Origin: Spizellomyces punctatus DAOM BR117
Taxonomy: Eukaryota
Reading direction: 5' to 3' (one strand)
Length of the DNA stretch: 64,000 nt
Assembly: GCA_000182565.2 (NCBI GenBank)
Contig: KQ257459.1
Numbering within the stretch: position 1 is the stretch's first letter; each line of letters begins with the position of its first letter. The translations under genes and the position numbers were made by a program. This document shows, in pieces, positions 1-26,800 of this stretch. The notes beneath the pieces were generated by a model. The model saw nothing but the letters and a program-made list of their open reading frames with translations, did not search any database and had not been told where the DNA came from.

Positions 1-210
1 CACCTAACCCTAACCCTAACCCTAACCCTAACCCTAACCCTAACCCTAACCCTAACCCTAACCTAACCCTAACCCTAACCCTAACCCTAACCCTAACCCT
101 AACCCTAACCCTAACCCTAACCCTAACCCTAACCCTAACCCTAACCCTAACCCTAACCCTAACCCTAACCCTAACCCTAACCCTAACCCTAACCCTAACC
201 CTAACCCTAA
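1..210. repeat. Telomeric repeat (CCCTAA)n / (TTAGGG)n, chromosome end
   Basis: About 33 perfect CCCTAA units from the first bases of the window, with one CCTAA variant at 62-66. The tract ends abruptly at 210. Confidence 0.98.
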
Positions 211-2279
211 CCTCCCGTGTGATGAATCCCTTTAGCAGCGTTCGAATAGGGGACTTCACCCACACTTTATACAGTTCTTCTCGCATGTTTGCACTAGGCG
301 TCGTCCGATCTCTCTCCAGCTCACACTGCCCATCATGAACAGCATACCAGTCCGTGTAGACTTCCTCCTCCAACAAATCCCTGATGCCTGTTCGGTGCTC
401 AATGGGAGAACTAGCATTCGGTGAAAGAATGTGATGTAGCATGATGCTATAGACAAGTTCGATGCGACGGGCCGTCGAGAAAAAGTTCCACAGGACGCCA
501 TGGACGCCCAGACCCTCCTCTTCTGGATCACCGCCGATAAAGTCAACCAGATGGTTGCGGCGAAAGGTCGCGGTTCGCCTGTTGGCCGGGCAACGTTCAA
601 TGGTGAACATATACCCAGCGATGCGAGAAAGGCGTTCGGACATTGACCAGGATGTGGAAGCTGCCATGGATATTGTACTGCTCTTGGGACTGTAGGCTCC
701 TGGCGGTGTGTGGTTGTTGGTGGGCTTATTGTGCTTGCCCTTTTTCTTGTGATTATGTTGCTGGCGATGACGGGGAGACGAATTGTTGGACATTGGAGAA
801 AATAATAAAGGTGTTTGGAGGGGGTGCTGTTTGGTAGGGCTACTCTTTGTACGTGCCTGCAAAGGACGCAAATTGGCAATGTCAGAGCAGCGGCAAAGCA
901 GAGAAACCTAACTACACACCTTTACTTCCATCTTTAACCTCACTTTTTCCGCTTCTCGACATAAAGCATCGAATGGCGCCATGATTTTAACAAAGCGCTC
1001 CTCCTCCTGAAAACTCTCCCAATCCACTTCCAACTCGACAAACAAGTTGGCGCGTAGCATCTGCCGGGTATATAAGCCACGAAGTTCGGATGACGACAAG
1101 GCATGGCGGTGTCGGTGTTCGTAATGATAACGATGCCTTTGGCTGTGATGCGAGGAAACTGTAGATGAATGAGAGTGGAGATGATGAGCCCGATATTTCA
1201 GAATGCGTCCCAGTGCGTCGAGGAATTGGCAAATACGATGCGGGTGAGAGCGTCGGCATGCGGACGTTGTGCTGAGGTTCAACAGAACAGAATAAATGTT
1301 GTGGTATTGACCGGCATCCTAACTTTGCATGATCTTACCAAAATGCCCAAGTGCGTCTTCAAGGCCAACCCTATCCCCTCTCTCCTCCTTCCACGCTACA
1401 ATGTCATCAAAAAGCTCGACATCATCCACATACATTAACAATATGACCCGTGCTCCAATGGTCCGGGTCACAATGTCCTCATACCCAGGCCCCGATAGTT
1501 CAAGCATGATAGGAAGCCTCGCACGTTCCAACGTGGGAACGCTCACTTCAGAATCTGAATCACTCCCAGATGATGGTGGCCGCGTTGGGGGACGAGGAGT
1601 GTGATGGCGAGGGTAGACACGAGAGGAAAATGTTTCGGATTTCGGGAGAGAGTCGGCGCTGCTGGAGGCATAGGAAAAGCGCAGAGTCGTCGGGTCCGGT
1701 GCCTCGGCCTGCAGTTGGGATAAATTATCTTGCCTGAGCTGGTGCGGGGACGCTGCTAGATGTCGGCGTTGATGGGGGGGCGTTTGTGTATGTCCTCTGT
1801 TCGACTTGCAGCATGGGCCAAAGATATATTTGAACGGGTGAGCGGGCACACGAAGGCTCCTGCTGCCGAGGGTATACTGGAGATGTGCCACCCGCTGGTT
1901 GGAATACGGTAGCGGCATGACTACTTCCCTTGCTCAACCCTCTTTGATCGATGCTTTCGCGTTCAATGGGCGTGCTATGTCCACCCTTTTGTCGATGATG
2001 CTTGCTTTCTCGAACTGCTAATTCGTCATCTCCCGATCCTCCTACATATCTACCCTCCCTGAATAGATCGCGATTCGCTGATTTTTTTCTTCGACTCTTT
2101 TCTACCTCTCCCGTCTCAGCAAATCGGGTTGCAGCAAGGACAAAATTGGAATCCAGAGCATGAGCAGTTCCCGATCGGCCAGTGTGTCTGTGACGTTGTC
2201 GATGGGGATGATGAGCTCGTGCTGGAGTCTGAAGGATGGGATCAGAAAACAAGAACATAATGTGATGATTCTTATTCAT
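211..2279 (-). pseudogene. Anoctamin/TMEM16-family gene, N-terminal cytoplasmic part only, truncated by the telomere (5' end uncertain)
   Basis: The exon ending at 920 encodes FVKIMAPFDALCREAEKVRLKMEVK. A GT..AG intron (919-857) joins it in frame to an exon (856-211) encoding NFFSTARRIELVYSIM..GIRDLLEEEVYTDWYAVHDG..NMREELYKVWVK, which matches the anoctamin dimerisation-domain pattern. There is no stop before the telomere. ORFs 1319-1918 and 1725-2279 are probable upstream exons. Confidence 0.75.
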
Positions 2280-2726
2280 GGGTCCATATATTCGTTATTA
2301 GCTTTACCTCTGTCGTCGTGGATGGGAGCGAATCAGTTTCGTGCTGCCTGACTGGCGACTCGTTCTGATGGCCTGCTGCAGACATGCTCTACCGTGCACA
2401 CTGGCGCATGATGGATAAAGAGCTTTAGAAAACGAGACCAAGTGGAAGACTTGCTGAGGACCCCAAGCCGTTTGCAAGTTGCTGCGCAATGGGAGTTTCC
2501 GTATGGAATGGTTCCAAAATAACGAAACACTTGGAAGGAAAAGTGGGAAATTTTGCGAAAAAAGTTGTACCCGCTCTCTGAACAGCAATTGCATTGCAAC
2601 TCTTTTTTTGTTTACACTTGGGGATGATCATCACATCTGCAAATGCTTGGGAATGTTGAAAGCTTGCAATAATAATAATAATCACTCTTTTGAAATGTCA
2701 TTCCCTACGATTCTTGTCAGCACATA

Positions 2727-2756
2727 AGTGTGTGGGAAAATAGAAATGTCAGTGCC
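2727..2756 (+). repeat. Left terminal inverted repeat of the Fanzor element
   Basis: AGTGTGTGGGAAAATAGAAATGTCAGTGCC matches the reverse complement of 4910-4939 (AGTGTATTAGCAAAAACAAATGTCAGTGCC) at 24/30 positions. The inner 13 nt are identical. Confidence 0.85.
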
Positions 2757-2972
2757 ACGGAGCATCGCAGCCAGTTGAATTAACCACATTTATTGTGAAC
2801 CTCACGAAGATAAACAAAAAAACGGGTCCAATACGTGCGGCAACGAACTGAATATTCTGCAGTTGCTCCACCATTGAAAAACGGGTCCAATGCGCAGTTG
2901 TCATATTTCTATATAAACCTGCCTTCCCTGCCCATTTCCCAGGTTTTCATCCATTTTTCTATTCCAATCATC

Positions 2973-4853
2973 ATGCTGCCAAAGAAAAAGCAAAAGCTTG
3001 AAAAACTTGACAAACCCACCTTACATACCTGCAACAAAACTTCCTTTGCAAAAGCTTTCCTGCCAAATGAGATCTACCACCAATGGCTTCTAGATTACAT
3101 CACCATCATCCATCAACTCGCTGACCACACTTCCCACGTGCTGAAATTCTACATCCTATCTGCACCATCCTTTCCCATGGTAGATCAAGATACAATCGAA
3201 GTGATTCTCTATCTTCTCAACAAAGGTGAATCATGGCAACCAAAAACCGGTGCAAAAAAGGCATTATGCAAATCCTTGTTGCCATACATCCAACAGTACT
3301 GCCACATTGTTGGCTATGTTCATCCAAATCTACAAAAAGAGCAGCAGTCAATCAATTACCTGACAGCAAGTATGATGACAAACCTGAAGGTCAACATTCA
3401 AGAACATTTCATGATGATGCTGCTCCAATATATCAATCTGTGGCTTGACGTGAAGGGACGGAAAGGGCAGCTGCCACTGAAAAGTGATGCGCAGAAAGCT
3501 TTCTTTACTCGGCTATGCTATTTAAAGTCAGTTTTCCTTTTCGAAACCATGCCAGAATTGCTGGATGACTTGACTGCTGAAGAGAGTGAACTTCTAGAAG
3601 AGATTTGGTCCCTTAACATTCCCCTTTCTGATGACCAGCCACTCGCATATTCCATTGCTGTAGACCCTCTCGCGTTCTTTCCTGCATACTGTCAGGTGTC
3701 AAGCCTATATGAAAAGCATGGATTTCGATGGTTCAGCGCCATCCCACTTTGCTGCTCCCTCATCCAAAGCCATGTGTGGATTGACACTGTCATCCTCTAC
3801 TCTCATGTTCTTTGCATCACATGACAAGAAGCAGAAGCTGTAGAGAAGGTCGATTTATGGTTGTGCATCTGCAATCTACGTACCAAAGCTTTTCAGTCTC
3901 ACCATGGTATGCAGTTTGAAGGCTCGATCACGACAGATGGAACCTTGGTATCTGTATACCTAAAGCACCCAGAAGGAGACAAGTATGGAAAGCATGGAGC
4001 GAGAAAGTCAGCAAACATGGTGGTGGCAGAGGTCAAAGTGCTTTATGTGGAGAACAACTTACCTGCTTGTTGAGCAGCAGAGAATGTCATCATTATTGAC
4101 CCAAACAAGTGTGACATTCTGTACTGCCAAGACAGCAATGGTACGACATTTTGCTACACCACCAACCAGCGAGCCGTGGAGACTGGAAGCCATCGATTTG
4201 CAAAAGAACTGCAGCAGATGAAGAAAGCGGGAATTGACCTCATAGAATCATGTATCCCTAGCCACAAAACAATGAACCTCATGGATTTTACTCACTATCT
4301 CCTCATTCGGCGCACTGATTCAGATCATCGAAAGGACTTCTATTCGCATCCTGCCCACACGCGGTGGAAGTGGCATGCATTTATAAACCATCAGAAGAGT
4401 GAATCGAACCTCATATCTGACTTGCGCAACAAGTATGGTGAAAACTTTACCATTGTGATGGGAGATTGGAGCGATGCCGGTCAAACTGCAAGATTTCAGA
4501 CCTCATCAAAGACGAAAGGTTGGCATGCCCTCTTTACGTGCAACAGGATCAACTGCTTCCTTCTCGACAAGTATAAAACCTCATCTGTCTGCCCTCACTG
4601 TTCCTCTGGCGTTGAAAAAGGCTTCAAAACACGACCTCATTCAAGACCTTGGCAGCGAGGCAAGATTGAAAAAGTCCACGGATTGCTGGGTTGTACCAAC
4701 CCTAACTGTTTGCAGCAAGCCTGGACAATGCGCTACTGGAATCGAGATACGCTGAGCACCTGCAATATGGTAACGATCGTGCAATCAATGTTGGCTGGAC
4801 ATGGTAGACCAGACGTGTTCAGCAGGCAGTGTTCCAGCCGTAGCGTAGCATAG
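2973..4853 (+). pseudogene. Fz1: Fanzor1 RNA-guided endonuclease (TnpB/Cas12-related RuvC), inactivated, about 626 codons
   Basis: ORFs 2835-3824, 3861-4073 and 4176-4853 share one frame and are separated only by TGA at 3822-3824 and 4071-4073. The protein has an N-terminal NLS-like PKKKQK, then ITTDG, RuvC-I IIIDPNK, MGDWS, LLD(K)YKTS, zinc finger CPHC..CTNPNC and RuvC-III WNRD. It closely resembles SpuFz1 as I recall that sequence. Confidence 0.93.
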
Positions 4854-4867
4854 ATTGGTTAGATTAG

Positions 4868-4955
4868 CTTTTCCGAACCGGTTGTCGCCGGTTTATTCCC
4901 TGGTGTGGAGGCACTGACATTTGTTTTTGCTAATACACTAAGTGTCTGTCCCTGA
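4868..4955 (+). ncRNA. Putative Fanzor omegaRNA: scaffold 4868-4940 plus flank-derived guide from 4941
   Basis: Lies directly downstream of the ORF. Contains hairpin AACCGG-TTGTCG-CCGGTT (4876-4893) and a long stem of 4901-4913 with 4928-4940. The CTTTTCCGA..CCCTGGTG..CACTA layout resembles the SpuFz1 omegaRNA as recalled. The ~15-nt guide length is assumed from SpuFz1. Confidence 0.8.
4910..4939 (-). repeat. Right terminal inverted repeat of the Fanzor element (overlaps the omegaRNA 3' stem)
   Basis: Reverse-complement match to 2727-2756 (24/30). Confidence 0.85.
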
Positions 4956-5832
4956 TACGCTTTCTTGCGATTTCCCACAAGTAGTCCGTTGAAAGAGATT
5001 TCTTCCTCTTTGTAATCTCTCTCTCTCTCTCTCTCTTCCCTCTCTTTTCCCAAACCTCCTCCCACTCTCCTCCAGTCTCATCTTCCAGTGCAACTTAGCT
5101 AAATTCCCATTCAAAAAAAACACCCATATCAAAAACTAAAGCCCCAGTAGGAAATCGCGCAATCTTCTCTTTTGGCCATAAATGGAAATTTCCGGTTGGA
5201 TTTTTGGATGGGGTTCTCACATAATGTGACGTTTTTCCCTCTCTTGGTTGCTGCCACCGCTGCCTTTTATTACTTGTCAGTTTGCTCTGTCTTTTGCTCT
5301 GGTTATTTCCCACACACACACGCACTTGTCGTTATCTTTTGTCAAGGACCTCATTGCAAACGCGCTTGCCCTTCATTTGAGAATTGGTTCTGGTCTCATC
5401 TACTGATCGCTCTCAGGCAAATCCCCTGCATATTGAAGTTTGGCTACTAGAGGAGGGGTTTACCCAGTGACGACACATAAAGCAAAAAGGGGAGAACAAG
5501 GAACAAGCTCTCGAAACTTGGGTATGCGTGAGAAAAAGACTGTCAAAACGAATTCGACAGCTTTCCCAGGATACTGATAAAATGCCGCTTACAGGAAGAA
5601 ACAGCCACCCACAGTTACTCCACCCATCGGTGTCGCTCGATCCGGTCCCCCTTTTATCCCGCACCATTGTTCCTTCACCGGTACGAGTCCAAGACGCCGC
5701 GTACGATACTCGAACTGTCCTATTCCTTTGAGTCGGGTATGTGCAATTGGAGTGCAGTCAACCTTAATAGGTTCACTTTCTCACCTTCATTTTTGCAAAC
5801 GTGAAACAGGGCCATCGCACCTGCGCTCCCAA

Positions 5833-8800
5833 ATGCCCCGCCCACAAACTATCCACGAAGCATCGCTTGGAAGAAGCTCGAGACCGTCTACGCCGTCCGG
5901 GCCTCCAAGCCGCCACTCAACTTACGCGTCGGCCCTACGATCTCGCACGCACAGCTACCGCAATACTCCTGGAGGGAATACACCGGAAATTGGGGAGCAA
6001 GGGGAAGCATGGGACGGAGATCCTGATCGGACCCAGTTCAGACACACTGGGGACTTTTCTGCCATTCCTCCAAGTAGTCACGATGATGTTCATGAAGACT
6101 GGGAGGAAGGGCACGAATCACCAGAGGGACATGACTCTGGGAATGGATCGGGAGGCGAGGGCCAAGAGTCGGATGGAGAAGCGCGGCGGTTGAGAGACGT
6201 TCAAGAGGTCAGTTTTCTTTTTGCTCGAGATGCTGAAATTGCTAACGTTGGTATGAACTGACAATGGTACCTTCAGGCTATCAATGTAAGTCATCCGTTC
6301 GGTCTCAGAATATGGAAGCCGGCCTTGTATCGGAAATTCCGTAGTATCGATACCAAAACGTACAATGCACTGCATGCTACACCTGGCGAAAGACCGACGC
6401 GTACACTTTACCTCAATCCGGGAAATATACTGTGGTTGATCCTTTTTGGCTGGTGGCTCGCTCTCGTGTACTTCCTGGTGGCGACAGTTGTGCTGGGTCC
6501 CCTGGCTTTTCTTGGAAAGGTCGGAGCCACGATATACTTTTGTGGGAACGAGCGTGAGGAAATAGAATGTGGCCTTACGAGCTGTGTTGGATGGTTCTTC
6601 ATTGAGCTGGAAAATATCTGGCAGTACTCAAAAGTACGTCCTCTGCACAGTGTTTCAGTAGCCTTTCTGCCCCTCTAACATCTGATGCACATGGTAGGTC
6701 TTAATGAATCTTTCCGGATATATCCTGTGGCCTTTTGGCAAGTTCATTGCGAAGCGCCGAGTCTATCACATGGTCTTCCAGGAGGATCATGATGGGACGG
6801 CAAATGGCGTATCAAATGAGCGGACGGCACTGTTGTCTGATCACGATGGACAGCGATATTCGGAAGATACCTATGTTGTTGGCATACCCGATGATAGCGT
6901 TCCCGCAACGCCAGTGCCAGAACCTGCGTCATCAGCGGATAGACAAGACTTAAAGGTTGCGGCTTGCTGTGACAATGAGGCCAACGCAGAAAATATGAGC
7001 GAAGTTTCCGAAGAATCTTGGCATGAATTTATGTCGTCGAGTCGCAGGTACAGCTACGCGAACGGACATCATCATCGTTGGCCAAAATGGGTTCCGCGAT
7101 GGATTAGAAGAGCGTACAATGCTGGACTGGCAGGAAACTTATTCCGGCTGCTGCTCCTTATAACCATCGCACCTTTGCAGTTCGTCGTGGCTTGCATGTG
7201 CTCCTTTCTCGTCTTTCCACTGCCAATGGCCAAGCTGAATTACGTCCTCTTGAAGCATCTTTTCCGACACCCACTGCAGATCTCTGCCCACACTCCTGTG
7301 TACTCCAAGAGACCCAGCACTCGTCCCTCCAGAAGCGCTAGCCTGGCATCTCGCGCATCGGATATTTGGCGAAGGTCGAGTCGCATGTTTGGGCGGCCCA
7401 CAAGCATATTTTCCGAGTCGGCCGAGCCCATTGCTATTCCTACCACGTTAGGAACCCCGACGCAGATGCCAAGTGGTGCTGTGGCTCAAGGTCCCCAGCT
7501 GGCTCCCGAATTCCAAGTGATTCTGTGCACTTATAATGCTCTTGGATGGGATTACTACAAGTACACGTATGACGGGATCAACATCATTGTTATCAATTTG
7601 ATAGCAGTCGTCATTTTCGCGCTGGTAGATTTTTACGTGATCGGTCCACGCTTTGGTTACACCGGAATTGCAAGTAACACTGTTATTTTCGTGGCGTCGC
7701 TCATCAGTTCGATTCCTTTGGCGTACTTTATCGGAATGGCCGTTGCGTCGATTACGTCTGAAACAGGGTCTTTGGCTGTGGGAGCGGTGATCAATGCCAC
7801 TTTTGGATCCATCATCGAAATCATTCTGTACTCGCTCGCACTGGTGGAGGGCAAACAGCGCATGGTCGAAGGTGCCATAGTGGGATCTTTACTGGCTGGC
7901 TTGTTGGCCTTACCTGGTGTGTCAATGTTCTTTGGTGGATTGAAGAAGAAGGAGCAACGGTTCAACGCAAAAGCTGCTGGTGTGACAGCCACCATGTTGA
8001 TCGTAGCAGTTGTTGGGATGTTTACGCCTACCTTATTCCAAGAAGTGTATGGAACGCAGAAGCTAAAGTGCCTAGAGTGTCCGACAACTGTGGATCAGCA
8101 TTCAATGACTCCCCTCGGACTCGCGCTATCTTGTAAACATTGTCGTCTGATTAGCCCGCGCCCTTCGGAGGACCCGATTTACTTGACCAGTACGAGGCCG
8201 CTGGCATGGCTGTGTGCTGCTGCATTACTTTTGATGTATGCAGTCGGACTGCTATTCACATTGAGGACCCACTCACGTGTGATTTATGACAAACCCGACA
8301 AAAAGGTGAAGAGAAGGCGGAGGGCGGCTGCTGTATCCAGGGCATTGGACTTGGCAAAGAGCGACCATCATCATGGAATTCGTGCTATTGGAGGATTAGG
8401 AATAACAAATGATTATGGAGCAGAGGCTGCAGATCGAGAATTGCGTGAATCAAGAAACCCGAGAACCTCGGCAGCTGGTAATATTGGACAAGGACACGGG
8501 AAACGGGTATCACGAGTTAGCAACGCGGCCTCTATTCCCCCGAATGAATATCCCTTTCCTAACGTTCCACTAACGATCGAAACTTCCACCGGTTCCCGAC
8601 CAGTGAGTCTTACAACCCCCACAACACCCATCTCGCCGTCCCTCCCGCCCTGCCGCGGAATTCAAACGACATCTGGTGTCGTTCAGGTCGTTCACCCCGA
8701 TCCTGTTGTTTCAGTGATCGGTGGGGATGATTGGGATACGGCCTCAACAGGGTCATCCGAGTCTGATGAATCGGAAGCCCACGGACATGACCATCCAAAC

Positions 8801-9450
8801 TGGAGTATTTTTAAAAGCGCTCTGGTTCTACTCGGGTGTACGACATTGTATTCGCTTGTGGCGGAAGTTTTGATCAGCTCCGTGGATGAGGTTATTGAAG
8901 CGTATGATATTGATGAGAAGGTTCTCGGTGCAACATTGTTCTCGATTGTACCGCTTGTTACAGAATTTTGTGAGTATCATTGTGAGCATTTTGTGGTGTT
9001 AAGTAATCATATCTCATTATTCTCTTTTCAGACAATGCTATCGCTTTCGCCATGAACGGCAACATTGCGCTCTCCCTTGAGATCGGCTCCGCCTATGTTA
9101 TGCAAGCCGCCATGCTCCAGATCCCAGTCATGGTTGCCTTCTCCTCGTTGTTCTTTAAGCCTAGTCCAGCTGATCCCCCCAGTTTACCCACGTCCCCTCT
9201 CACTAAGCTTTACGCCTTGTTCTCTACCCCCACGACACCCTCCACCAGTACGAGCATAGATGGCTTCACCATGATCTTCCCGCGATGGGACTTGTACGCT
9301 GTGCTATTTGGCACCTTTATGTTGACATACGTCTACACGGAGGGTAAGAGCAATTACTTTAAGGGAAGTATGTTACTGGTAGCCTATTTCATTCTTTTGG
9401 CTGGGTATGTATTTGAGCCGGGGGACTCGGGTTGGGGAGAGGCAGTATAG
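5833..9450 (+). CDS. VNX1: Vacuolar cation/H+ exchanger, CAX family, Vnx1-like (multi-exon)
   Basis: AINVSHPFGLRIWKPALYRKFRS, GNILWLILFGWWLA, alpha-1 GAVINATFGSIIE, alpha-2 NGNIALSLEIGSAY..Q and EGKSNYFKG. GT-AG introns join ORFs 5728-6261, 6325-6678, 6704-9055 and 9052-9450. Confidence 0.9.
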
Positions 9451-12277: not shown

Positions 12278-12351
12278 GGCCGCGTGGCGCAATGGACTAG
12301 CGTATTGGACTTCGGATCCAAAGGTTGCGGGTTCGAGTCCCGTCGTGGTCG
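12278..12351 (+). tRNA. tRNA-Arg (anticodon TCG)
   Basis: Cloverleaf GGCCGCG..CGTGGTC, anticodon arm TTGGA-CTTCGGA-TCCAA, T-loop GTTCGAG, downstream T-run. Confidence 0.95.
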
Positions 12352-15416: not shown

Positions 15417-18400
15417 ATGTCCAACGCGGACCTCCCTCACATTAGCCAAGATGCTGGTGAAGACGGAACACCTTTGGTCAGAACAAACACAACTGGCCGT
15501 GTCATTTGGCAGGGACGCCTGTCCGGTGAACAGGCACGTCCACTAGACGCCCCAGACGAAATCGTGGTCGGGTTGCCGTCGCAAACGTCCGAAAGTCAGG
15601 CAGGACAAAGTCCACCACAGGAACCCGAACCAAACCTGGAGAGCGTGATAGAAGTTCGAGAAACGTCCGCGAATGATACTCATGATGCGCGGCCGCCTCA
15701 ACCGGACCGTGTTCAAAGCTTGACGTCGTACCAGCGTGAAATGGCTTTTGGTGAGCCATTGGCTGTAAAGAAATATGTCAAGGGCGAAGCTGGCGAAATA
15801 TTCGAAGAGGTGTCGGATGATGAGGAAGAAACCGATGAAGGTATCGTGGCGGACGCGCCGTACAAAGTTGAAGATCATGATGTGCCAATGAACGACATTT
15901 CCAAGAAGAAATCTCGGTCGTCGCTGGCGAGTGGAAAGAGTGGAAAAAGAAGAAAGGGTGGAGTCGACCCTCGCAAAGACGATTTCGATTTCGAAGCTTG
16001 GTTACATTATCGTCAGAAGAAATACAATGAAGCGGGCTTTATTGTACCGGAAGTCATCCTCACCTACAAGGACCTGGCCGTGTTTGGAGATCCTGTTGTC
16101 CAGCCATATATCGAGACAGTAGGAAAAGCGATCCTGAATACGATCAATATAGTGCCCCCTATCCGCCGAATGACTAGGTCTCTGGCAGGCAATCCACTGC
16201 CAAAACCCGAGAACAGACAGATACTATACCCAATGAACGGATTCTGCAAACCAGGCGAAATGACACTGGTCCTCGGTCGTCCGGGCGCAGGCTGCTCAAC
16301 ACTCCTTCGCACGTTGGCCAATGTTACGGAGGGCTTGTCTGAAGTGAGGGGAGACGTGGCATTCAACGGGATCGACAACAAGACGTTCAAAAAACAGTAT
16401 AGTTCCTCAGTTGCCTACAACCCCGAAACCGATCCTCACTTTGCAAGCTTAACTGTGCGCCAGACACTGCGGTTTGCGCTCGAATGCCGAATCGGCGGTG
16501 CTGTAGAGGAACGAAGACGAGAGCGTATTGAAGAGTGGATCGATGTGTGTGTGAGAGTGTTTGGACTGCAGAATTGCGCAGATACGAAAGTCGGGGATGA
16601 AATGATTCGAGGTTGTTCTGGTGGTGAAAAGAAGCGCGTGTCCATCGCCGAGCAGTTGTGTGTGGCTGCCTCAATGGGATTCTGGGATGGTTCAACCAAA
16701 GGTCTTGATTCGTCTTCCGCTCTCGACTTTGTGCGCGCTCTCCGGGTCCTGACGGATATTACCCAAACGGGCAATGTCTTGTCACTATATCAAGCATCTC
16801 AAGACATTTATGATCTGTTCGACAAGGTGTGCTTGATCGCCGATGGTCGATGCATCTACTTTGGCCCTGCCAAGGATGCCAAGCCCTACTTTGAATCCAT
16901 TGGATTCTTCTGCCCCAAACGAAAGGTAACGCCAGACTTTTTAACTGGTATTACCGAACCGATGGAGAGGGATGTGCAAAAGGGCTGGGAAAGTAAAGTA
17001 CCCAATACTACTGAAGAGTTTGAAGCGATGTTCCGTCAAAGCGATGTGTTTAGAAGAATGGAAAAGGACCGGGAGGCTTTGTTGAATGATGTCAAGGTTG
17101 GAAGACGTGGGTCGATCTTCGGAAAGCAGGTGCTATCGAACAAGCAAGTACTCGGTCGAGATGACTTGCTTAAGACACAGTACACGACGTCGTTGTGGCA
17201 ACAGATCAAGGCCAATTTCAAGCGTGAAGTTAACCTGCAGAAGGGTAACGTCGCATTGATCGGCCGTGTGTTCTTTGATACCTTCATGGCGGTGGGTGCA
17301 AGAGGCGTATATCCGCTGCTATTCGTGGTTCATTACTGACAAGCCTGCGCAGATTATCATCGGTTCAGCATTCTTCCAACTCGAACCTAACGTCTCCGGT
17401 GCTTTCTCACGAGGTGGTGTACTCTTCTTCGCCCTACTGTACAACTGCTTCGGTGCCCTCGCGTCTGTTCCGCTGGTGATCCAAGGACGTGCTGTGGCAG
17501 CCAAGCACAAGTCGTATAAGCTTTACAGGACGTATATCTCACCGCTTATCATGCAAGCTGTGGATATTCCGGTTTCAATCGTGATGATTATTATTTGGAG
17601 TTGTATCAACTACTGGTAAGTTCCAGTATGGAAGAGCGATAAAGAATTCATTAGTATTGAGTCTGCTTTTCTGGGCAATAGGATGGTCGGCTTGAAGGCT
17701 ACTGCTGGAGCATTCTTCTCCTACATGGCGTTCCTCTTTGCCGCTAACCAAGCCTTTGGTGGGATGGTGCGCATCGTAGCCTCTTTGGCACCAAACCTGG
17801 AAGCCGCGACGCAAATCAACGGTATCTTCCTTCTATTCTTCATTCTATATACCGGATATATCATTCCGTATCCCTCGATGCAACCGGTCTTGAAGTACAT
17901 CTTTTGGATCAACCCCCTTGCGTACGGTCTAAGAGCGCTATTGGAAAACGAGTTTGACGGACAGCAAATTAATTGTGACGGTGCATTCTTACCTCCATAT
18001 CCCAATGTTCCTGATGCAAACAAGGGATGTGCTATGAAGGGTTCCGTCCCTGGCCAGCCGTACGTGGACGGTATGGCCTACCTTCGGGAGAGCTTTGGAT
18101 ACGGCGCCTACAACCGCTGGTTCAATTTTCTGATTCTGATGGGATTCTGGGTCGTGATTATTTTTGGAATGATGGCTGCAAACAAGTATGTTGACTATTC
18201 TCCCCGATCTTACTCGATCAACATGTGGAAAAAGGCCAAGGACCTTGCCGGCCGTCCGGGACGGAAACACAAGGGGGCGACACAGCAGCAAAATGGTCCT
18301 GCAGATTTGGAGCGCGGACCGGATGGTTCTTCTGTACCCACCTCTGGGGACCCAAACAGCGCCGAGCGCACCGCCGCAAAGGTTGGAGGAATAATCAGAG

Positions 18401-20600
18401 CCGAGGCTTTCACATGGAAACATATCAATTATACTGTTCCTACCAAAGATGGACCGAAACAATTGCTGAACGATGTGTCTGGTTATGTGCGCCCGGGAGA
18501 ATTGACCGCATTGATGGGATCGTCCGGTGCGGGTAAAACAACCCTCATTGACGCAATCACCCAGCGTAAGACAATTGGCAAACTTGAGGGGCAGATTTAC
18601 GTTGGCACACATCCTCAGGACAATCTTTTCAAGAAGAACACTGCTTACTGTGAGCAAATGGATGTGCATAATCCGGGTACAAGTGTTAGAGAAGCTCTCC
18701 GGTTTTCCGCCAGATTGCGTCAAGAACATTCGGTGCCTCTGGAGGAAAAGTATGCGTTCGTCGAGACTGTCATTGGGCTTTTAGAGCTGGAGCCCATTGC
18801 AGACGCCGTGATCGGTGACTCTGCAACCGGTGTCGGTATCTCCAACGAGCAGCGAAAACGAGTTACTATTGGTGTCGAGCTCGTTGCCAAGCCGAAAATT
18901 CTCTTCTTGGATGAACCAACGTCTGGTCTGGACTCGCAAGCCGCTTTCAACATTATTCGTTTGCTCCGCAACCTTGCCAACAGTGGCCAAGCCATCCTGT
19001 GTACCATCCACCAACCGAGTGCGGTTCTCTTTGAACAGTTCGACAGTCTCCTCCTTCTTGCCCGCGGCGGGCGCGTAGTCTATTTTGGCGAACTCGGTCA
19101 AGATTGCGAAAAGATTACTGGTTATTTTGAAAGCCAAGGCGCTCCACCATGTCCACCCACCGCAAACGTAGCCGAATACATGTTGGATGTCATTGGGGCA
19201 GGAACAGCTCGTCGGGATGCAACAAGAGATTGGCCAGAGCTGTGGAAGGAGAATCCACGATTCCAACAGAATCTAGACAAGATTGATGAAATCCGTGGTG
19301 TGGGTGATACTGGAGCAAAAGACGTATCGCAAGCGGTGCATTTGAGGGGAAAAGCCAAAAGGGAACAGTTTGCTGCGCCATTTTCGACCCAGTTGGGCGT
19401 TGTTTGGAAGAGGATGCTGATATCATATTGGAGAAAGTGAGTATCGCTTATGGCCCTGTGACACGAGTCCGTGTGTTGAACTCATGTTTTTTTTTTGTTT
19501 TGTTTAGCCCGGAGTACAATTATGGACGAGTGCTCTCTCAAATCATGGCTGCTCTTCTCATTGGATTCACCTTCTTCCAATTGACCAACTCTGTAACGGA
19601 CATGCAGAATAAAGTCTTTGCCATCTTCATGGCTATGACGATTGGTGCCTTATTGATCAGTGAGTTTCCGTGTTCTCCCTTAATGTTATCTGCTATGGCA
19701 ACGCTGATTGGTTTTTCATAAGATTTGGTACAGCCGAACTATATTCGCAACAGGTCCTGGTTTACGCGAGAAGCGGCTGCAGGCTTTTATGACTGGAAAG
19801 CCTTTGCACTATCTATTACAACCGCTGAGATCCCCTTTGCTCTCCTTGCTGCAACGTGTTTCTTTGTGATCTTCTACTTCTTGGCTGGGGTATGTTTTTA
19901 CACGCTGTGGAATTGGCTGACATGTCATTTTCGATACTAAATAGTCCGGTTTTATCTCTGTAGTTGAACGGAGATTCTTCCCGTGCCTTTTACTTTTGGC
20001 TCATTTACGTTGTGTTCAACTTCTTTGGCGTTTCGCTTGGACAAATGATTGCCGCCGTGTCTCCCACCCTGCAGTTTGCTGCCGTTTTGAATCCATTCTT
20101 CTTGTCGATGCAAATGCTTTTCTGTGGAGTAACCAGTACGTTGATATCTGCCACATGTGTTTTGACGTCTGACGCACTCTTAGTAATTGATCTGTAAACC
20201 AACAGTAACATACGCGGCGATGCCCAAATTCTGGCGTTCTTGGCTCTACCACATCGATCCTTTCCGCTACTTTGTGGAAGGCGTAATTGGAAATGAACTT
20301 GGCGGGGTACCAGTAACTTGCGAAGGAAACGAAGTGACCATCATCTATCCTCCTTCCGGCCAGACGTGCAGCCAATATTTCCAACCCTTCTTCCAGGCGG
20401 GTGGTCCTGGCCAATTGCGCGATCCCTCTTCCAGCAGTGTCTGCGAGTACTGCATGTATGCTGTGGGTGACCAGTTTGTCGAACGGCTCGGTTGGTCTTT
20501 TGACAACCGATGGAGGAACTTTGGGATTTTGTGTGGGTTCTGGGCTTTCAATATTGTTGCCGTTGCCCTTTTGGTGAGACTATATAGGACTGGGCGCTAA
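15417..20600 (+). CDS. Full-size ABCG/PDR-type ABC transporter (multi-exon)
   Basis: NBD1 GRPGAGCST and CSGGEKKRVSIAE; NBD2 GSSGAGKTT, EQRKRVTIGVELVAKP and LDEPTSGLDSQ; two TMDs in NBD-TMD-NBD-TMD order. Confidence 0.95.
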
Positions 20601-20847: not shown

Positions 20848-23800
20848 ATGGGGAGTCGGGAGGGACCTGCTGTTGAGGAAGTTGAGGGCGAGCCTGTCGC
20901 TCAGACGGTAAGTACTGCGAAGAGTTGTGCATGGCTGGCAAACGAAACGAGCTGCAGACAAGTAGTCAGTCATCTTGAGACGGTTCCCTGCTCTATACTG
21001 GTACCAGACGCATTTGGGAGGGAGGGGATAGCGACACGAGATGCTCCCTCGCGCGGATCTCATGCATGTCTCGAATGAAAACTACAGTCTGATTGACATA
21101 ATTTGTCCCCCACCTGCAGTGGCTCCAGTTTAAACCCTTGCAGCTGGACGCAAGGCTCAAGGTATCTGATCCACTTGATGTTGGCGACTATCCGTCTCTC
21201 TTGGCAGTATCCTCGCGATATGGATATGCTGTATTCGGGACCACCAAAGGTTGTAGAACTTTGCTCGCACTTGCTGAATCCATTCCTCTGACATGAGAGT
21301 TGGTCGTAGGATATACCTTTGTTCGTGTCAAGGACGTCCGAGCCTCGCTGAATAGTGCGGCAAAGGGATCGGTAGTACCTATTAAGAATGCAGTGGAAGT
21401 GGAGATACCCGATGATGTTGTTACCCGCATCATACTGGACACGACCGAGTTGATGGTCATTGTTTATACCCGGGCAGGGAAGATCCTTCTCTATGCTGTA
21501 CCTGGATTGTTGGAAGGAGTAAGGATCTGTATTTGGAGCTGATATATTCTATCGATCTCACGCTTCTTTGAAATATTGTTTTGTAGGAAAACAGGGCCAC
21601 ATCGACTTTTGACTTGGGGTCCAATGTTCTTGATTTGCGAATGAATCCGGGTGCATTTCCGAAAGCTGCTGCAGCATTACTGGAAGACGGATCTGTATCC
21701 CTCCTTACTTTGGAACAGGATGGGAAGATTACAAGGAGTCCCTTGGTCAGCGATGCTTGTTCGAGTAAGTTTGAGAGCGTTGTTTATCGATCCTCAAAGC
21801 ACCCTGTCAATGAGATTTTCTTGCAGTTTGCTGGAGTCAAAAGGGGAAGCAATTGGCCTGTGGACTCAAAGATGGCAGCGTCGTACAAGTCGCGCCTGAA
21901 GGAACGATTACGAACACCATCCCTCCTCCCCCAGCATTGGTGTCAAACTATCCCGTAAAAGGTATGCATTACTGACGTTTCCCCCCTATTTAACGGATTC
22001 TAAGCGCTTGATAGTGAGCTCTGTTCAGTGGTTGCACAAGCGGATGTTTGCTGTTATCTATCAAGCATCACAAGAAGATGCGAATGAGCCAAGTCCTTTA
22101 TTCATCATTACCCAAACTCCTATAACGACGGTTTGTCTGCACTGATTGTTTGTAGTTTGATGGCTCTTTTCGTAACTTTGTTGATACTTAGGAAGGGCCT
22201 TTGAAGACAAAATATATTCAGCTTGATGAGCCATTGTTTCCAGATACGGATCGAAAGAGTCAGTATTTTACGGAGGCAATTAAATCACTGTGAGTGAAGA
22301 ATTTGGATTGTGGTGTCTTTTCAAAGCCCTGACAGCATGCGTACAAAGATGTTCAGATATACCACTGCTCCTTGCCATTGCGAACGCCTACTCTACTGAC
22401 ATAGCCTTTGCCGGCGCAGCTGATGCCACATCCAGCCAATTCGGGAATTTCATCCTAGAGGAAGGATCAGGCATCATGCTTCCACTGGACGAAAACGAGG
22501 AAAATACGTGGGTGGTGGGAATGGGAATCGACTTCACCAGCGATGAGCCCGTTCCGGCGCCAACACCGGACCGACAACCATCGCCCTCTGTTCCCATTTT
22601 ATTGGTTTATACAAATGCGGGAGAGCTAGCGGCATACCATTGCCTGGATGTACAGGCTGCCGACAAGGGGGACAGATGCACGACGATGCGCACCGTTGAA
22701 GCCTTACCTACACGAGACGCGGCCGGCGCTGTTGGCCTTGCACAAAGCGAAGGTCAATCACAGTCAACTGAGGCGAAAAAATTAGTGACACAGGGGATAC
22801 GACTCCCGGAGACAGGAGATCTGTCCTCGGGTACTCCAACACCTAAGGCGTCGTCCTTTGGAGGATTCTTCCAACCTCAAGCGCAAGTGCAGAAAGGTGC
22901 CCCTGCTCAACCTGCTTTTACAGGCTTTGGCACGCCTCCTGTGCCGGCTACAAGTGTTGATGCAACAAAGGCAACTGCTGGATTCGGGTTTGGGAATGGT
23001 AGGTTGGGCGCTCCGGTGACTGCTGAGGGGTCTCCCGGGTTAACAGCAAAGCCTGCAGCAAGTGATGTCTCCTCTGGAGTGACAGAGAAGGCATCATCGG
23101 TGAAGCCTGCATCGATAGGGTTTGGGTTTCCTTCTGCGTCGGGATTTGGCACGATGACAAGTGCACCACAACCTGCTTCGACTGGGTTTGGATTCCCTTC
23201 AGCATCGACCGGGCTTGGTACGACAACGACAACGACACCGACAACTACACAGCCCGCATCAGCAGGGTTTGCATTCTCATCCGTATCAGCAGACGGTACC
23301 GTGACGCCACCCGCAACACAGCCTCCATCGAAAGTGTTTGCATTCCCTTCTGCGTCCACAGGATCAGGCACCGCGACAGTTACAACACCACCTGCATCGA
23401 AAGGATTTGGATTCCCTTCTGCATCGGCAGGATTGGGTGCCATTACAACCACGCAACAACCTGGATCGACAGGACTTGAATTCCCCTCTGCATCACTAGG
23501 ACAGACCCCGACGACAACCACGCAGAAGCCTGGCTTAACCGGATTTGAGTTTCCTTCTGCATCCTCGGCCAGTACGGCGGCGACAACACAACAGCCCGCA
23601 TTGGGGGGTTTTGCATTTCCTCCTGTGTCTGCAGGGGGTAATCTCACGATGTCAAAGCAAACCGCAGCCGCTGGACTGAACAAGGCTGGACCCACAGCAC
23701 CAGCTCCTATGGTTACCTCATCAAAACCGGCCACCACGTTTCCTGCATTCTCAGCCGCCGGCGCTTCGTCTGCAAGTAACATTTTAGGAGGATCCAAGCC

Positions 23801-26800
23801 GACTACATCCGCATCTACCGGTGGTGTTTTTGTGCCCCAGATGGGAGATTGGACGGCAAAGAAATCTGGTGAACAGAAAGCGGAGTCTTCAGCCAAAAAT
23901 GTTTCTAAACAAGTGCATTTTGCGACTCCACCTCAATCGACGGCCGTCTCAAAAACAGTGGAATTGCTCGACAGTGATAAGATAGAGGTTTGTAGGAGAA
24001 TCATATTGTGGACTCCTTCAACGGATAATTGAGCAAATCTCGCTGTAGATTGTCCATAAAAAGTTTGAGGATCTATACAAATCCTTCTCCGCGGAAATGG
24101 AAACTGTAAGTCTCCATGCCTGAGACATGACCGCGAGCAACCTAGTTAACCACTCTTGTAGTTTCGAAAAGCCCTTCAATCCAGCGGACAAGCTGTTAAA
24201 ACGGCTTCGCAGAGCGCACCAGACGTGGATTTGAGCGATCCAGCAAATTGGACTATGGCGGATCTTCCCACGCTTTTGACTGACACCCATACGATAATGA
24301 AGCGGATCGAAGTCCTAAGATCCGAGGTGGAAGCTGCACACAAGAAGGAAACGACCCTTGCCGATGGCATTCCTTATGGTATGGGTCATTCATGATTTCT
24401 CCTGCACGATTTTCGTATATCCTCATGTTCCCTGACAGACGAGGCCCTCGCAAACGAGTGTCAAAGGTTGATTGATATGTTTAATGAGCAAGGCGGTCCG
24501 GACGTTATTCATGATGCGCCGCTGGGACTGGAGGATCAGGAATTGAAGGAAAAGCTTTGGAATCGGAAAAGGGTATGTACGAGGTGTTATGTATCCCCTT
24601 CGAAGGTTTTCACTGATAACGTTCCCCAGGCGGTGGACAGGACTTTGCAGCAGATTACAAATCGGTTGGAGAGATTGAAGATTAAAGATAAACGCCAGGC
24701 TTCCACGCAGGAGATAAAGTGAGTGTCGCCTGAATCGTGAGCAGCGATCCGAAGACTTTTGCTTGATGTCGGTTCTAATGAATTTGCAGGGGTTATGACT
24801 GGGCAACCATTTGCCAGACCACACACCGCGTCACCGAATCGACCATTTCAACAGCGCACGTATTGGAGCATCTAGAACAATCACTCGCACCACTCATGTC
24901 AAAACTCGCTCTGACACCCGCACGCAAGTCCATACCAAAACCTGTCACTCCACGCAAAGGCCGCGCGTTCGGACTGTATGACTCTGACTCGGACAGCGAA
25001 GAAAACGAGAAGGAAATCATCGTCCACGTTCCTGCTACCGTTTTTCGTAGGACGCGTTTCCATAGAATATTCAAAGATGTGCTACAATCATCTACCTCCC
25101 AACTTCATATCAACCGTCGAGCCTTCCATGATGAAAAAGAACGCCGCATGAAGGATCCGGAGGCCGTCGAGAAAGCACGTGCAGCCATGGTATCCCCGCC
25201 AAAGGAGAACGAGCCGACGGCCCCGCCACAAAAGTTTTGGGATATCATTCAGAAAATTAATATGGAGATGGACTTTAAGGAGGAAGAATCAGCATCTCCA
25301 GAGGTGGAAGAACCGGACGAAAAAGGAACTGTTTCTTTGAAGTTGGAAGAGGCTGAGGATGAAGAGTCAGTCGATGTTGCAGAGGAAGTCGAAGATGTAG
25401 ACCAATCGCCCGTCCCTCAAGAGTCGAGCCCGATGTTTGGGCAACCATCAATTGTGAGCAGACCAAAGCCAGAAACAAAGCTAAACCAACCTGCCTCCCT
25501 TTTTTCCATCAAGCCTACCACTGCTGGACCTTCCTTTGGGTTCACTTTTCCAGGTGGTAGAGCAAAGGAGCAGACCCCTTCAGATACAGCGGAATCCTCA
25601 GGCGAGAGCCTCGCAGAACCTGCTTTTGCTGTCGAAACTGAGGAGATTGCCAGCGAGGACGACGATGGTGTGTTGCAGGGTGAAGAAAACGAAGAGGATG
25701 CGGCCGCGGACGAAGAAGACCAAAATGTGGGCGACCGACAGCCCAAAGTCAAGGATGAGATACCTCTCTTCAAGTCCTTTTCCATATTAGCAGAACCTCC
25801 AAGACCGAAGGTTGAAGTTGCGGAACCGCAAGTATCAAAACGCGCAAGGGAAGAACCGCTCTCGTCGACACCAGAACCGGAATTGAAGGATCAAAGACTT
25901 TTGTTCGGTGGTCTACAGAAGCCCGTCGTGCCCGTAACGAAAGCTGCATTTCCAAGTCCTGTGCTGGACCAAACTGAGGCGAATATCGGCTCGACAAAGC
26001 CGCACCAGTCCCTGTTTGGATCTGCAAAAACGACATTTGCGCCCGTAACTGAGCCTGTGGAAGAAACACCTACACCTGCTCCGGCTGAAGCGCACGAACG
26101 GCGAGCCGTGACACCAAATCCCGAAGGACAGGAAAAGAAACCTTTATTTGGGTTCCTAAATGCACCTGGAACTGGACTTGAATCTGCTGGACAAAATCCG
26201 GCAACGGAGCGCGGAGAACAAGCAGAAGATCAAGGGAATGAATCTCAATTGCAGCCGGAGGATCAGACTGAGATAGAAGAAGCTGCTGAACAAGTGGGTG
26301 AAGAAGAACCGAAGGCAGCCGTCACCGAGGCGGAGGTACTCGATCAACAGCAGGAACAAGTGGTCGATACGGAGCAGTCTACAGAAGAGCAGCCTACAGA
26401 AGGGCCTGCAAAAGAACCTACAGAAGTGCCTGTAGAGGAAACACCACAGGAACCTCCTTCAAAACAGCCCACAGAGGAGGCAATCGATAAAGTTGCAAAG
26501 AGCGGTGCAGCTGAACCAGCAATCAAAGTATCCACAGAAGTGCCAGCGGCCACTGCCAGCCCACAGACGAGTCAGGCTGAACCAGCAGCAGACACAGGAA
26601 CCCCTGCGGAAGAAGATGGCATGGAAGTTGAAGATGGTCAGTTGGCTGATGCCTTTGGGTCTGGGTTTGGGTCTTTGGGCGGAGCTGCCAGTGAGAAAGG
26701 TGACCAAAGGAAATCCTATATTGCATTAGGAGTTTTTGATATTAATATGATGTATCTTAGCAGCCAGTGGGTTCGGTGCATTCGGCGGACTCGGACAGTC

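What the first reader, a model, noticed from the sequence alone, without database searches (positions are those of the whole stretch)
2723..4955. Complete Fanzor1 OMEGA locus: eukaryotic RNA-guided nuclease gene, omegaRNA, TIRs and TAM in a subtelomere
Seen in sequence: three ORF-track fragments form one reading frame (2973-4853) encoding a TnpB-like protein with RuvC motifs and a CxxC..CxxxxC zinc finger. It is bracketed by 30-bp imperfect inverted repeats, preceded by CATA and followed by a structured ~73-nt segment. Established: Fanzors are eukaryotic RNA-guided DNA endonucleases, and SpuFz1 of S. punctatus uses a CATA TAM and a guide read from DNA flanking the element's right end. Inference: this is a divergent SpuFz1 relative. 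Its TIR and 3' scaffold differ from the SpuFz1 sequence I recall, so it may be an uncharacterised subfamily whose active consensus could be rebuilt as a programmable nuclease.
Basis: partly seen in the sequence, partly recalled or inferred. Interest (0 to 1): 0.95.

Follow-up and report, generated by a model that had tools for sequence, protein, structure and literature searches.

The report
Decayed copy of known Fanzor transposon
This is a broken, mutation-worn copy of the well-studied SPu-1/SpuFz1 Fanzor element of the soil fungus Spizellomyces punctatus, lying beside a chromosome end; it is ordinary and not a new kind of RNA-guided nuclease.

Summary
Window 2723-4955 holds one 626-codon frame (2973-4853) with two in-frame TGA stops. 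It is bracketed by 30-nt inverted repeats, preceded by CATA, and followed by a two-hairpin segment. It lies 2.5 kb from a (CCCTAA)n telomere.

The protein aligns end to end with the solved SpuFz1 structure (PDB 8GKH; E=0, 1095 bits). In a quick tree it nests inside the clade of 17 named S. punctatus DAOM BR117 paralogues. It is therefore a copy of the SPu-1/SpuFz1 family described in 2013 and characterised in 2023 (42 Fz loci, 134 ghost loci), not a new subfamily.

The copy is dead as a nuclease gene. It has two stops, one at the TAM-reading R291. Catalytic E541 is Lys, and R157, R268, R420, R481 and R531 are lost. Its extra divergence (72-80% identity against 83-88% among intact paralogues) is mainly CpG decay. 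Of 48 copy-specific replacements, 38 are single C>T/G>A changes, 37 of them at CpG. CpG o/e is 0.51-0.56 against 0.87 in the rest of the window. DNA reads support the lesions.

The omegaRNA scaffold is nearly identical to highly expressed copies. Whether this locus's own RNA is made is unresolved. Verdict: already known, low interest.

The parts
2723..2726 (+). CATA directly 5' of the left inverted repeat. It equals the published SpuFz1 TAM (the 'CA' conserved upstream of the IR plus TA).
   Evidence: Read. TAM and the conserved CA are from Saito 2023 passages. Bao and Jurka 2013 describe putative TA target-site duplications. TAM function at this locus is inferred.
2727..2756 (+). Left-end inverted repeat (30 nt).
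   Evidence: pair I1, 80% complementary to 4910-4939. Core 13-mer found only at the two ends. A contig of another copy (run X8) matches from 2727 onward and differs before it (table 7).
2757..2972 (+). 5' non-coding part of the element, with an 18-nt direct repeat (2818-2835 and 2877-2894, 17 of 18 identical). Possibly a promoter region.
   Evidence: for the repeat. The promoter role is inference only.
2973..4853 (+). Fanzor1 (SpuFz1-family) pseudogene: 626 codons, two internal TGA stops, no frameshift.
3822..3824 (+). First premature stop (TGA). It falls at the position of SpuFz1 R291, a TAM-contacting residue.
   Evidence: Contigs of runs X1 (3791-4182) and X8 (3809-3956) cover it with 0 other letters (table 8).
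4071..4073 (+). Second premature stop (TGA), at the position of SpuFz1 R374.
   Evidence: In DNA run X18, T at 4071 is kept in 89 of 284 reads; the rest read C, as paralogues would (table 3).
4098..4100 (+). RuvC catalytic Asp (SpuFz1 D383), retained.
4569..4571 (+). RuvC catalytic Glu (SpuFz1 E541) replaced by Lys (AAG).
   Evidence: In DNA run X18, A at 4569 is kept in 173 of 534 reads; the rest read G.
4590..4709 (+). Zinc-finger cysteines CPHC (4590-4601) and CTNPNC (4692-4709) of the NUC domain, retained.
4746..4748 (+). RuvC catalytic Asp (SpuFz1 D606), retained.
4865..4940 (+). omegaRNA scaffold region: stem-loop 1 at 4875-4894, linker 4895-4901, stem 2 at 4902-4939. Both ends are uncertain by about 3 nt.
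   Evidence: Fold. RNA and DNA reads of other copies stop fitting before 4860-4867 and behind 4940 or 4941 (table 7). The published scaffold is 75 nt with two stems and a 6-nt linker.
4910..4939 (+). Right-end inverted repeat (30 nt), lying inside the scaffold.
4941..4955 (+). Flank that would serve as the 14-15-nt guide of this locus's omegaRNA.
   Evidence: Position inferred from the published architecture. The neighbouring 15-mer 4940-4954, one base off this span, is unique in the window: its only other matches carry 3 mismatches and no CATA before them. Expression of this particular guide is not shown.

Best explanation
The region is one copy of the SPu-1 transposable element of Spizellomyces punctatus, the element that encodes the RNA-guided endonuclease SpuFz1 (Fanzor1). 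[quoted passage not shown] Its protein gene is a pseudogene. Two CGA>TGA nonsense changes, loss of the catalytic Glu (E541K) and loss of many nucleic-acid-contacting arginines rule out an active nuclease from this copy. The damage is almost entirely C>T/G>A at CpG. That is the signature of deamination of 5-methylcytosine in a silenced, methylated transposon; a CpG-directed RIP-like process would look the same. Shown here: homology, placement inside the family, the lesions and their mutational signature, and their support in DNA reads. Inferred: the organism's name, methylation as the cause, and any residual role of the locus as a source of omegaRNA for intact paralogues.
For: Homology. The frame, read through with X at the two stops, matches the SpuFz1 chain of PDB 8GKH with E=0 and 1095 bits, query 3-620 against chain 397-1028. 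P0003 (SPPG_07727, 638 aa) matches that chain over 2-638 with 1493 bits, so its numbering is SpuFz1 numbering.

Family. Of 33 database relatives, 17 are named S. punctatus DAOM BR117 proteins, at 72-81% identity. The quick ML tree has 28 rows, the copy plus 27 of the 33. The copy falls inside a 98% SH-aLRT clade of 18 rows, the 17 named paralogues plus itself, with end branch 0.2 against a median of 0.1.

Lesions. TGA at 3822 and at 4071. E541>K; R291>stop; R96K, R157Q, R268C, R420L, R481H, R531C. D383, N385 and D606 are kept.

Decay signature. There are 50 columns with Arg in at least 60% of 12 paralogues. The copy keeps 18 of them, and 29 are C, Q, H, W or stop. The 12 paralogues each keep 33-49 of 50-53. 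There are 407 columns conserved in at least 10 of 12 paralogues, with 48 copy-specific replacements. Of these, 38 need one C>T/G>A change (37 at CpG), 2 need the reverse transition and 8 need a transversion. CpG o/e is 0.56 for the element and 0.51 for the ORF, against 0.87 for the rest of the window.

Reads. X1 contig 3791-4182 spans both stops with 0 differences. In X18 DNA reads the copy's letters appear in 89 of 284 reads at 4071 and 173 of 534 at 4569. Mean depth in the flank bin 2650-2730 is about 70, both directions summed.

Literature (passages seen). SPu-1 is about 2.1 kb with 33-bp TIRs and TA TSDs; 17 full-length copies were found, 9 with intact ORFs (PMC3627910). Saito 2023 reports 42 Fz loci (19 full-length), 134 ghost loci, 30-nt IRs with CA upstream, a 75-nt scaffold plus 14-15-nt guide, and a CATA TAM (PMC10432273). 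In Spizellomyces 5mC is confined to transposons (PMC12695648).
Against: No whole genome was available. The organism is therefore inferred, and I could not show that this locus is one of the 42 published ones; the supplements are closed. No nucleotide sequence of another copy was in hand, so ancestral codons were inferred from paralogue proteins and from this copy's own neighbouring bases. Short DNA reads (38 nt) cross-map heavily between copies, so read support for the lesions is a minority share at each site. Pfam and NCBIfam gave no TnpB/Fanzor hit, but they also miss genuine SpuFz1, so this is uninformative. The careful tree search did not finish, so only the quick tree with SH-aLRT support is reported. 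Methylation at this locus was not measured.
Confidence: 0.9

Rival explanations
1. The protein gene is dead, but the locus is still a working omegaRNA gene. Its scaffold plus the flank 4941-4955 is transcribed and loaded in trans by intact SpuFz1 paralogues, as proposed for ghost Spu-1 loci. This would place the locus midway between an autonomous element and a ghost. It extends the best explanation rather than excluding it.
For: The scaffold region is near-identical to expressed copies. RNA run X17 gives a mean depth of 8067 in bin 4837-4917, against 29 or less in the bins that lie wholly inside the ORF (2974-4836), at 95% likeness or more. The fold keeps two stems and a 6-7-nt linker. Eight of 13 scaffold letters named in Saito 2023 (U5, C6, C7, U16-G20) fit one register starting at 4868 (my reading). 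Ghost omegaRNAs work with SpuFz1 in human cells.
Against: Most RNA reads on the scaffold come from other loci. 6872 of 7290 reads show C where this copy has T at 4931. 3549 of 8268 carry an extra C behind 4907. 3293 reads run on behind 4940 into a different guide. No read set was shown to carry this locus's own flank. The copy has a G-U where most copies would have G-C in stem 2 (4910 with 4931), and seemingly one or two 1-nt deletions relative to the published numbering.
Confidence: 0.3
2. The CpG transitions come from an active repeat-directed hypermutation process (RIP-like, with a CpG preference) rather than from slow spontaneous deamination of 5mC.
For: The bias is extreme: 38 C>T/G>A changes against 2 reverse transitions, and 37 of the 38 are at CpG. 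There is no frameshift in 1.9 kb. The copy is a repeat in a multi-copy family.
Against: Other paralogues keep most arginines, 33-49 of 50-53, so any such process does not hit all copies. 5mC on transposons is reported for this genus and suffices. No test of RIP machinery was made here.
Confidence: 0.15
3. A distinct, uncharacterised Fanzor1 subfamily related to SpuFz1.
For: Identity to the paralogues in the matrix is 67-80% (72-80% to the ten named ones). That is lower than the 83-88% seen among the seven longest named paralogues.
Against: The copy is nested within the named S. punctatus clade (98% SH-aLRT) and within a 95% subset of 12 rows. The excess divergence is copy-specific CpG decay. 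The scaffold is at least 95% like expressed copies.
Confidence: 0.03
4. The gene is intact in the organism, and the stops are assembly or sequencing errors or are read through.
For: At 4071 and 4569 most short DNA reads show the letters of an intact gene.
Against: Those reads are expected from cross-mapping paralogues. The copy's own letters appear in 89 of 284 and 173 of 534 reads, against a mean depth of about 70 in the flank bin 2650-2730. Contigs from two runs cover the stops without differences. The catalytic Glu and 32 of 50 conserved arginines are also lost.
Confidence: 0.02

Closest known systems
SpuFz1 (Fanzor1 of Spizellomyces punctatus; SPPG_07727; PDB 8GKH; Saito et al. 2023, PMC10432273)
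   Same: Full-length collinear homology at 77% identity. Same domain order. D383, N385 and D606, the zinc-finger cysteines and the TAM-reading Q129, Q130, N133 and Y345 are retained. The locus plan is the same: CA/TA flank, 30-nt IRs, a scaffold of about 75 nt after the stop, and a guide from the right flank.
   Different: Two premature stops. E541K. R291 lost to the first stop. R96K, R157Q, R268C, R420L, R481H, R531C. Only 18 of 50 conserved arginines are kept. It cannot be an active nuclease as encoded.
SPu-1 transposable element family (Bao and Jurka 2013, PMC3627910)
   Same: About 2.1-2.2 kb, a single ORF, terminal inverted repeats of about 30 bp, TA next to the ends.
   Different: This copy is among the members without an intact ORF; the paper counted 9 intact of 17 full-length copies. 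Its nucleotide identity to the family consensus could not be measured here.
Ghost Spu-1 loci (Saito et al. 2023)
   Same: A possible source of omegaRNA without a working protein gene of its own. Contigs and reads that fit 4864-4906 and then diverge (table 7) are consistent with ghost-type scaffolds sharing the 5' half; that reading is my inference.
   Different: Ghosts are about 550 nt, lack the ORF, and their IRs differ at seven positions. This locus still carries the whole, decayed ORF and Fz-type IRs.
TnpB of IS200/IS605 (e.g. ISDra2 TnpB)
   Same: RuvC nuclease with a zinc finger, an omegaRNA from the right end, and a TAM at the left flank. This is established knowledge, also stated in Saito 2023.
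   Different: Eukaryotic host, larger REC domain, inverted repeats instead of subterminal hairpins, and no TnpA. No profile hit could be obtained here, even for SpuFz1 itself.

Membership tests
SPu-1 / SpuFz1 (Fanzor1) element | Full-length protein homology to SpuFz1 | tested here: met
   E=0, 1095 bits, query 3-620 against 8gkh_P 397-1028; 77.3% identity to P0003.
SPu-1 / SpuFz1 (Fanzor1) element | Placement inside the S. punctatus SpuFz1 clade | tested here: met
   inside a 98% SH-aLRT clade of 18 rows (17 named paralogues plus this copy). Quick tree only; the careful search did not finish.
SPu-1 / SpuFz1 (Fanzor1) element | Terminal inverted repeats of about 30 nt with CA (CATA) upstream of the left one | tested here: met
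   The arms are 80% complementary.
SPu-1 / SpuFz1 (Fanzor1) element | [quoted passage not shown] | tested here: met
   fold; reads of expressed copies fit 4837-4940 at 95% or more. No reference scaffold sequence was available for a direct alignment.
Active Fanzor1 nuclease | Uninterrupted ORF | tested here: not met
   TGA at 3822-3824 and 4071-4073. Supported by contigs and reads.
Active Fanzor1 nuclease | RuvC catalytic residues D383, E541, D606 | tested here: not met
   D383 and D606 kept, E541 replaced by K (AAG at 4569-4571).
Active Fanzor1 nuclease | TAM-reading residues R96, Q129, Q130, N133, R291, Y345 | tested here: not met
   R96K and R291>stop; the other four are kept.
Active Fanzor1 nuclease | RNA-guided, CATA-dependent dsDNA cleavage | not testable with these tools
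   Needs a biochemical assay. Predicted absent for the encoded protein.
TnpB / OrfB_Zn_ribbon profile families | Significant match to Pfam or NCBIfam TnpB-type profiles | tested here: inconclusive
   none, apart from DUF7863 at E=0.036, below its cut-off. The controls P0003 and P0001 also give none. Precomputed PF26935 on the paralogues did not appear among the hits of this library, not even for the control paralogues.
New Fanzor1 subfamily | A separate lineage outside the known SpuFz1 paralogues | tested here: not met
   tree. Searches show that the extra divergence is copy-specific CpG decay.

The most novel reading that the evidence does not exclude
The dead copy may still be a live guide-RNA gene. 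Its near-canonical omegaRNA, carrying a guide for its own empty subtelomeric site, would be loaded by intact SpuFz1 paralogues. If so, the locus captures the transition from an autonomous SPu-1 element to a 'ghost' element. The route of protein-gene death would be CpG-specific hypermutation of a methylated subtelomeric repeat.
Probability: 0.25. Interest if true: 0.3.

Novelty: already known. Interest (0 to 1): 0.12.

Why it matters
It matters little for discovery. The family was the prototype Fanzor in 2013. Its nuclease, omegaRNA, TAM and structure were published in 2023-2024, and the host genome's 42 Fz loci and 134 ghost loci were catalogued. There is no uncharacterised subfamily here, and no consensus needs rebuilding because intact paralogues, including SpuFz1 itself, exist.

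The modest value lies in a clean example of how a Fanzor copy dies. The changes are almost purely CpG transitions, with no indels in the frame, and they remove the arginines that hold RNA and DNA, one catalytic residue, and two codons that become stops. Meanwhile the RNA scaffold stays close to that of expressed copies. It is also a caution for scanning: a pseudogene's decay can look like subfamily divergence.

Tried and rejected
- **Whole-genome search for other copies.** No genome is held for this window, so genome-wide copy counts and a nucleotide consensus were not possible. Within the 64 kb there is no second copy or ghost-like end: blastn and blastn-short found only self hits and chance matches.
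- **Rfam.** The E-value-mode scan of 2400-5400 found 0 families.
- **Pfam and NCBIfam on the read-through protein.** No family reached its cut-off. I rejected this as evidence because genuine SpuFz1 and a paralogue also give nothing.
- **The look-up of sequencing runs.** No RNA holder was listed in the index.
- **Expression of this locus's own omegaRNA.** The laid RNA run could not settle it, because reads from other copies dominate.
- **Exact look-up of 8 neighbouring ORF products.** Seven of 8 are not in the collection. One (44913-46835, minus strand) is present, on a 1,011,657-bp contig, with its name withheld. The organism is therefore inferred, not read off.
- **Printed omegaRNA or IR sequence.** A 13-nt core from the window was searched for in two papers, with 0 occurrences. 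The supplements (Supplementary Data 1-2 and the Tables of Saito 2023) are closed. They may list this very locus and the reference scaffold.
- **Matching scaffold letters named in Saito 2023 by eye.** Eight of 13 fit one register and 10 of 13 fit with a 1-nt shift. G22, C40 and G70 do not fit. I treat this as weak.
- **Careful ML tree.** It was not finished after two 300-s calls.
- **Papers linking Fanzor with pseudogenes or subtelomeres.** The top-ranked 12 of the 1,265 papers returned by the search included none on that topic.
Full report
**What is there.** The window starts with a telomere: (CCCTAA)n occupies 1-213. About 2.5 kb further in, one reading frame on the + strand runs from ATG 2973 to TAG 4851-4853. 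It has 626 codons and is interrupted only by TGA at 3822-3824 and TGA at 4071-4073. There is no frameshift. The frame is bracketed by a 30-nt inverted repeat, 2727-2756 and 4910-4939, which is 80% complementary and the longest of the 30 pairs found in 2400-5300. The 13-nt core of that repeat occurs exactly twice in the 64 kb, once at each end and inverted. Chance expectation is 0.13, and 0 of 100 shuffles gave two matches. CATA stands at 2723-2726. The 75 nt before the end of the right arm fold into two stem-loops joined by a 7-nt linker, at -22.5 kcal/mol and z = -2.4; 3 of 200 shuffles fold as well.

**What it is.** The product was read through with X at the two stops. It matches the Spizellomyces punctatus Fanzor chain of PDB 8GKH with E = 0 and 1095 bits, over query 3-620 against chain 397-1028. 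It then matches Parasitella Fanzor1 (5e-38) and Guillardia Fanzor1 (9e-4). A database search returned 33 relatives. Seventeen carry S. punctatus DAOM BR117 names, at 72-81% identity. P0003 (SPPG_07727, 638 aa) matches the 8GKH chain over 2-638 with 1493 bits, so I used it as SpuFz1 for numbering.

I built a quick maximum-likelihood tree of 28 rows: the copy plus 27 of the 33 hits. P0026 and P0029-P0033 were left out as short or very distant. The tree puts the copy inside a 98% SH-aLRT clade of 18 rows, which is exactly the 17 named paralogues plus itself, and inside a 95% subset of 12 rows. Its end branch is 0.2 against a median of 0.1. A second run reprinted the same quick tree, and the careful search did not finish.

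The organism's name is my inference from this nesting. One neighbouring ORF product (44913-46835, minus strand) is an exact entry of the NCBI/EukProt-derived collection on a 1,011,657-bp contig, with its name withheld. No whole genome was available.

**Why it looks divergent.** I aligned the copy with 12 paralogues: the hits of at least 580 aa and at least 66% identity, namely P0001-P0010, P0013 and P0015. The copy is 67-80% identical to them (72-80% to the ten named ones). The seven longest named paralogues are 83-88% identical to each other. The excess is one-sided decay.

- *Arginine loss.* In the 50 columns where at least 60% of the 12 paralogues have Arg, the copy keeps 18. It has Cys 9, Gln 8, His 7, Trp 3 and stop 2, which makes 29, plus K, L and one gap. 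Each paralogue tested the same way keeps 33-49 of 50-53. Arg makes up 3.5% of the copy against 7.2-9.5% of the paralogues.
- *Substitution types.* There are 407 columns conserved in at least 10 of 12 paralogues, and the copy differs at 48. Of these, 38 are explained by one C>T or G>A change, and 37 of those sit at a CpG as far as the copy's own neighbouring base shows. Two need the reverse transition and 8 need a transversion.
- *Dinucleotide content.* CpG observed/expected is 0.56 in the element and 0.51 in the ORF, against 0.87 in the rest of the window. TpG+CpA is 1.41 against 1.15.

Both stops correspond to Arg in the paralogues (R291 and R374 of SpuFz1). E541K (GAC-AAG) also sits at a former CpG.

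**Consequences for function.** I used the residues named in passages of Saito et al. 2023.
- Catalytic residues: D383, N385 and D606 are kept, but E541 is Lys.
- TAM readers: Q129, Q130, N133 and Y345 are kept. R96 is Lys and R291 is the first stop.
- Backbone contacts: R157Q, R268C, R420L, R481H and R531C are changed.
- The zinc-finger cysteines are intact.

The encoded protein is therefore truncated at residue 283. Even if read through, it lacks a catalytic carboxylate.

**Are the lesions real?** I laid four runs on 2650-5050 at 95% likeness or more. A contig of run X1 covers 3791-4182 with 0 differences. A contig of X8 covers 3809-3956 with 0 differences. In the raw DNA reads of X18 (38-nt reads) the copy's T at 4071 is seen in 89 of 284 reads and its A at 4569 in 173 of 534. 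The other reads carry the letters of intact paralogues, as expected from cross-mapping. Mean depth in the flank bin 2650-2730 is about 70, both directions summed. X1 may be the sample the window was assembled from, so it is not independent support.

**The RNA part.** In RNA run X17 the bin 4837-4917 has a mean depth of 8067 (first mates on +). The bins that lie wholly inside the ORF have 29 or less. Most of these reads come from other loci. At 4931, 6872 of 7290 reads show C instead of T. At 4879, 6038 of 12079 show T instead of C. An extra C behind 4907 is carried by 3549 of 8268 reads. A further 3293 reads continue behind 4940 into a sequence that is not this locus's flank.

The points where reads and contigs of other copies stop fitting mark the conserved unit. 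They lie before 4860-4867, behind 4940 or 4941, and before 2727 at the left end (table 7). The published architecture is a 75-nt scaffold of two stems and a 6-nt linker, with a 14-15-nt guide beyond the right end. This copy's fold agrees with it.

By my own reading, scaffold letters named in that paper fit as follows. U5, C6, C7 and U16-G20 (8 of 13) fit with position 1 at 4868. A29 and C34 fit after a 1-nt shift. G22, C40 and G70 do not fit. I could not align a reference scaffold, because none is printed in the texts I could search and the supplements are closed. Whether this locus's own omegaRNA is made remains open.

**Comparison with what is known.** Bao and Jurka 2013 found the first eukaryotic TnpB-like protein in exactly this family. 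SPu-1 is about 2,100 bp, with a single ORF, 33-bp TIRs and putative TA duplications. They counted 17 full-length copies, nine with intact ORFs (passage). Saito et al. 2023 counted 42 loci with full-length (19) or partial Fz genes and 134 ghost loci in DAOM BR117. They described 30-nt IRs with a conserved CA upstream and showed the omegaRNA, the CATA TAM and the structure (passages). A 2026 paper engineers SpuFz1 and ghost scaffolds further (passages). For the 2024 Cell structure paper I saw only the listing and the start of the abstract. A 2025 Nature Genetics paper states that in Spizellomyces 5mC is confined to transposons (passage). That fits CpG deamination as the cause of decay. A CpG-directed RIP-like process would give the same pattern and is not excluded.

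**Surroundings.** No second copy or ghost-like end lies in the window. Downstream are ordinary genes: a Na/Ca-exchanger-domain ORF at 6704-9052 and two PDR-type ABC transporter ORFs at 15417-17336 and 17683-19437. ORFs between the telomere and the element gave no family.

**Verdict.** This is a structurally whole but genetically dead copy of a published element family, worn down by CpG transitions, in a subtelomere. Interest is low.

Noticed in passing
window 1-213: Telomere repeat (CCCTAA)n at the very start of the window. The Fanzor element lies about 2.5 kb inside it.
   Followed up: partly
window 12278-12351 (+) and 32746-32820 (-): Two tRNA-Arg(TCG) genes, 100% identical over 74 nt, in inverted orientation 20.4 kb apart.
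   Followed up: partly
window 42064-42163: An assembly gap of 100 N inside a 700-codon ORF call at 42046-44148.
   Followed up: no
window 2818-2835 and 2877-2894: An 18-nt direct repeat (17 of 18 identical) in the element's 5' non-coding part, upstream of the ATG. It could be a promoter or binding motif of SPu-1.
   Followed up: no
window 2974-3216 versus 4837-4940, RNA run X17: First mates lie mostly on the - strand over the 5' part of the ORF (17-29 against 0.5-3). They lie almost wholly on the + strand over the omegaRNA region (8067 against 16). Whatever the library's strandedness, one of the two signals is antisense to the expected transcript. Only 3 second mates were laid against 21807 first mates.
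   Followed up: no
window 3956-4060, run X8: One contig joins 3956 to 4060, skipping 103 nt, with 148 letters on the shorter side. It may be a deleted variant, another copy or an assembly artefact (tables 5 and 8).
   Followed up: no
window 4864-4906, runs X1, X8 and X18: Contigs and reads fit the 5' half of the scaffold up to 4906 and then continue with a different but related sequence. This is consistent with ghost-type Spu-1 scaffolds, which have another stem 2 (table 7).
   Followed up: partly
window 15417-17336 and 17683-19437 (+): Two adjacent ORFs that together look like one PDR/CDR-type ABC transporter (ABC_trans_N, ABC_tran, ABC2_membrane, PDR_CDR). They are probably one gene split by an intron or a frame change.
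   Followed up: no
window 23142-23522 and 26833-26982: Degenerate coding-type direct repeats of 93 nt and 75 nt inside long ORFs at 22476-24032 and 24896-26938.
   Followed up: no
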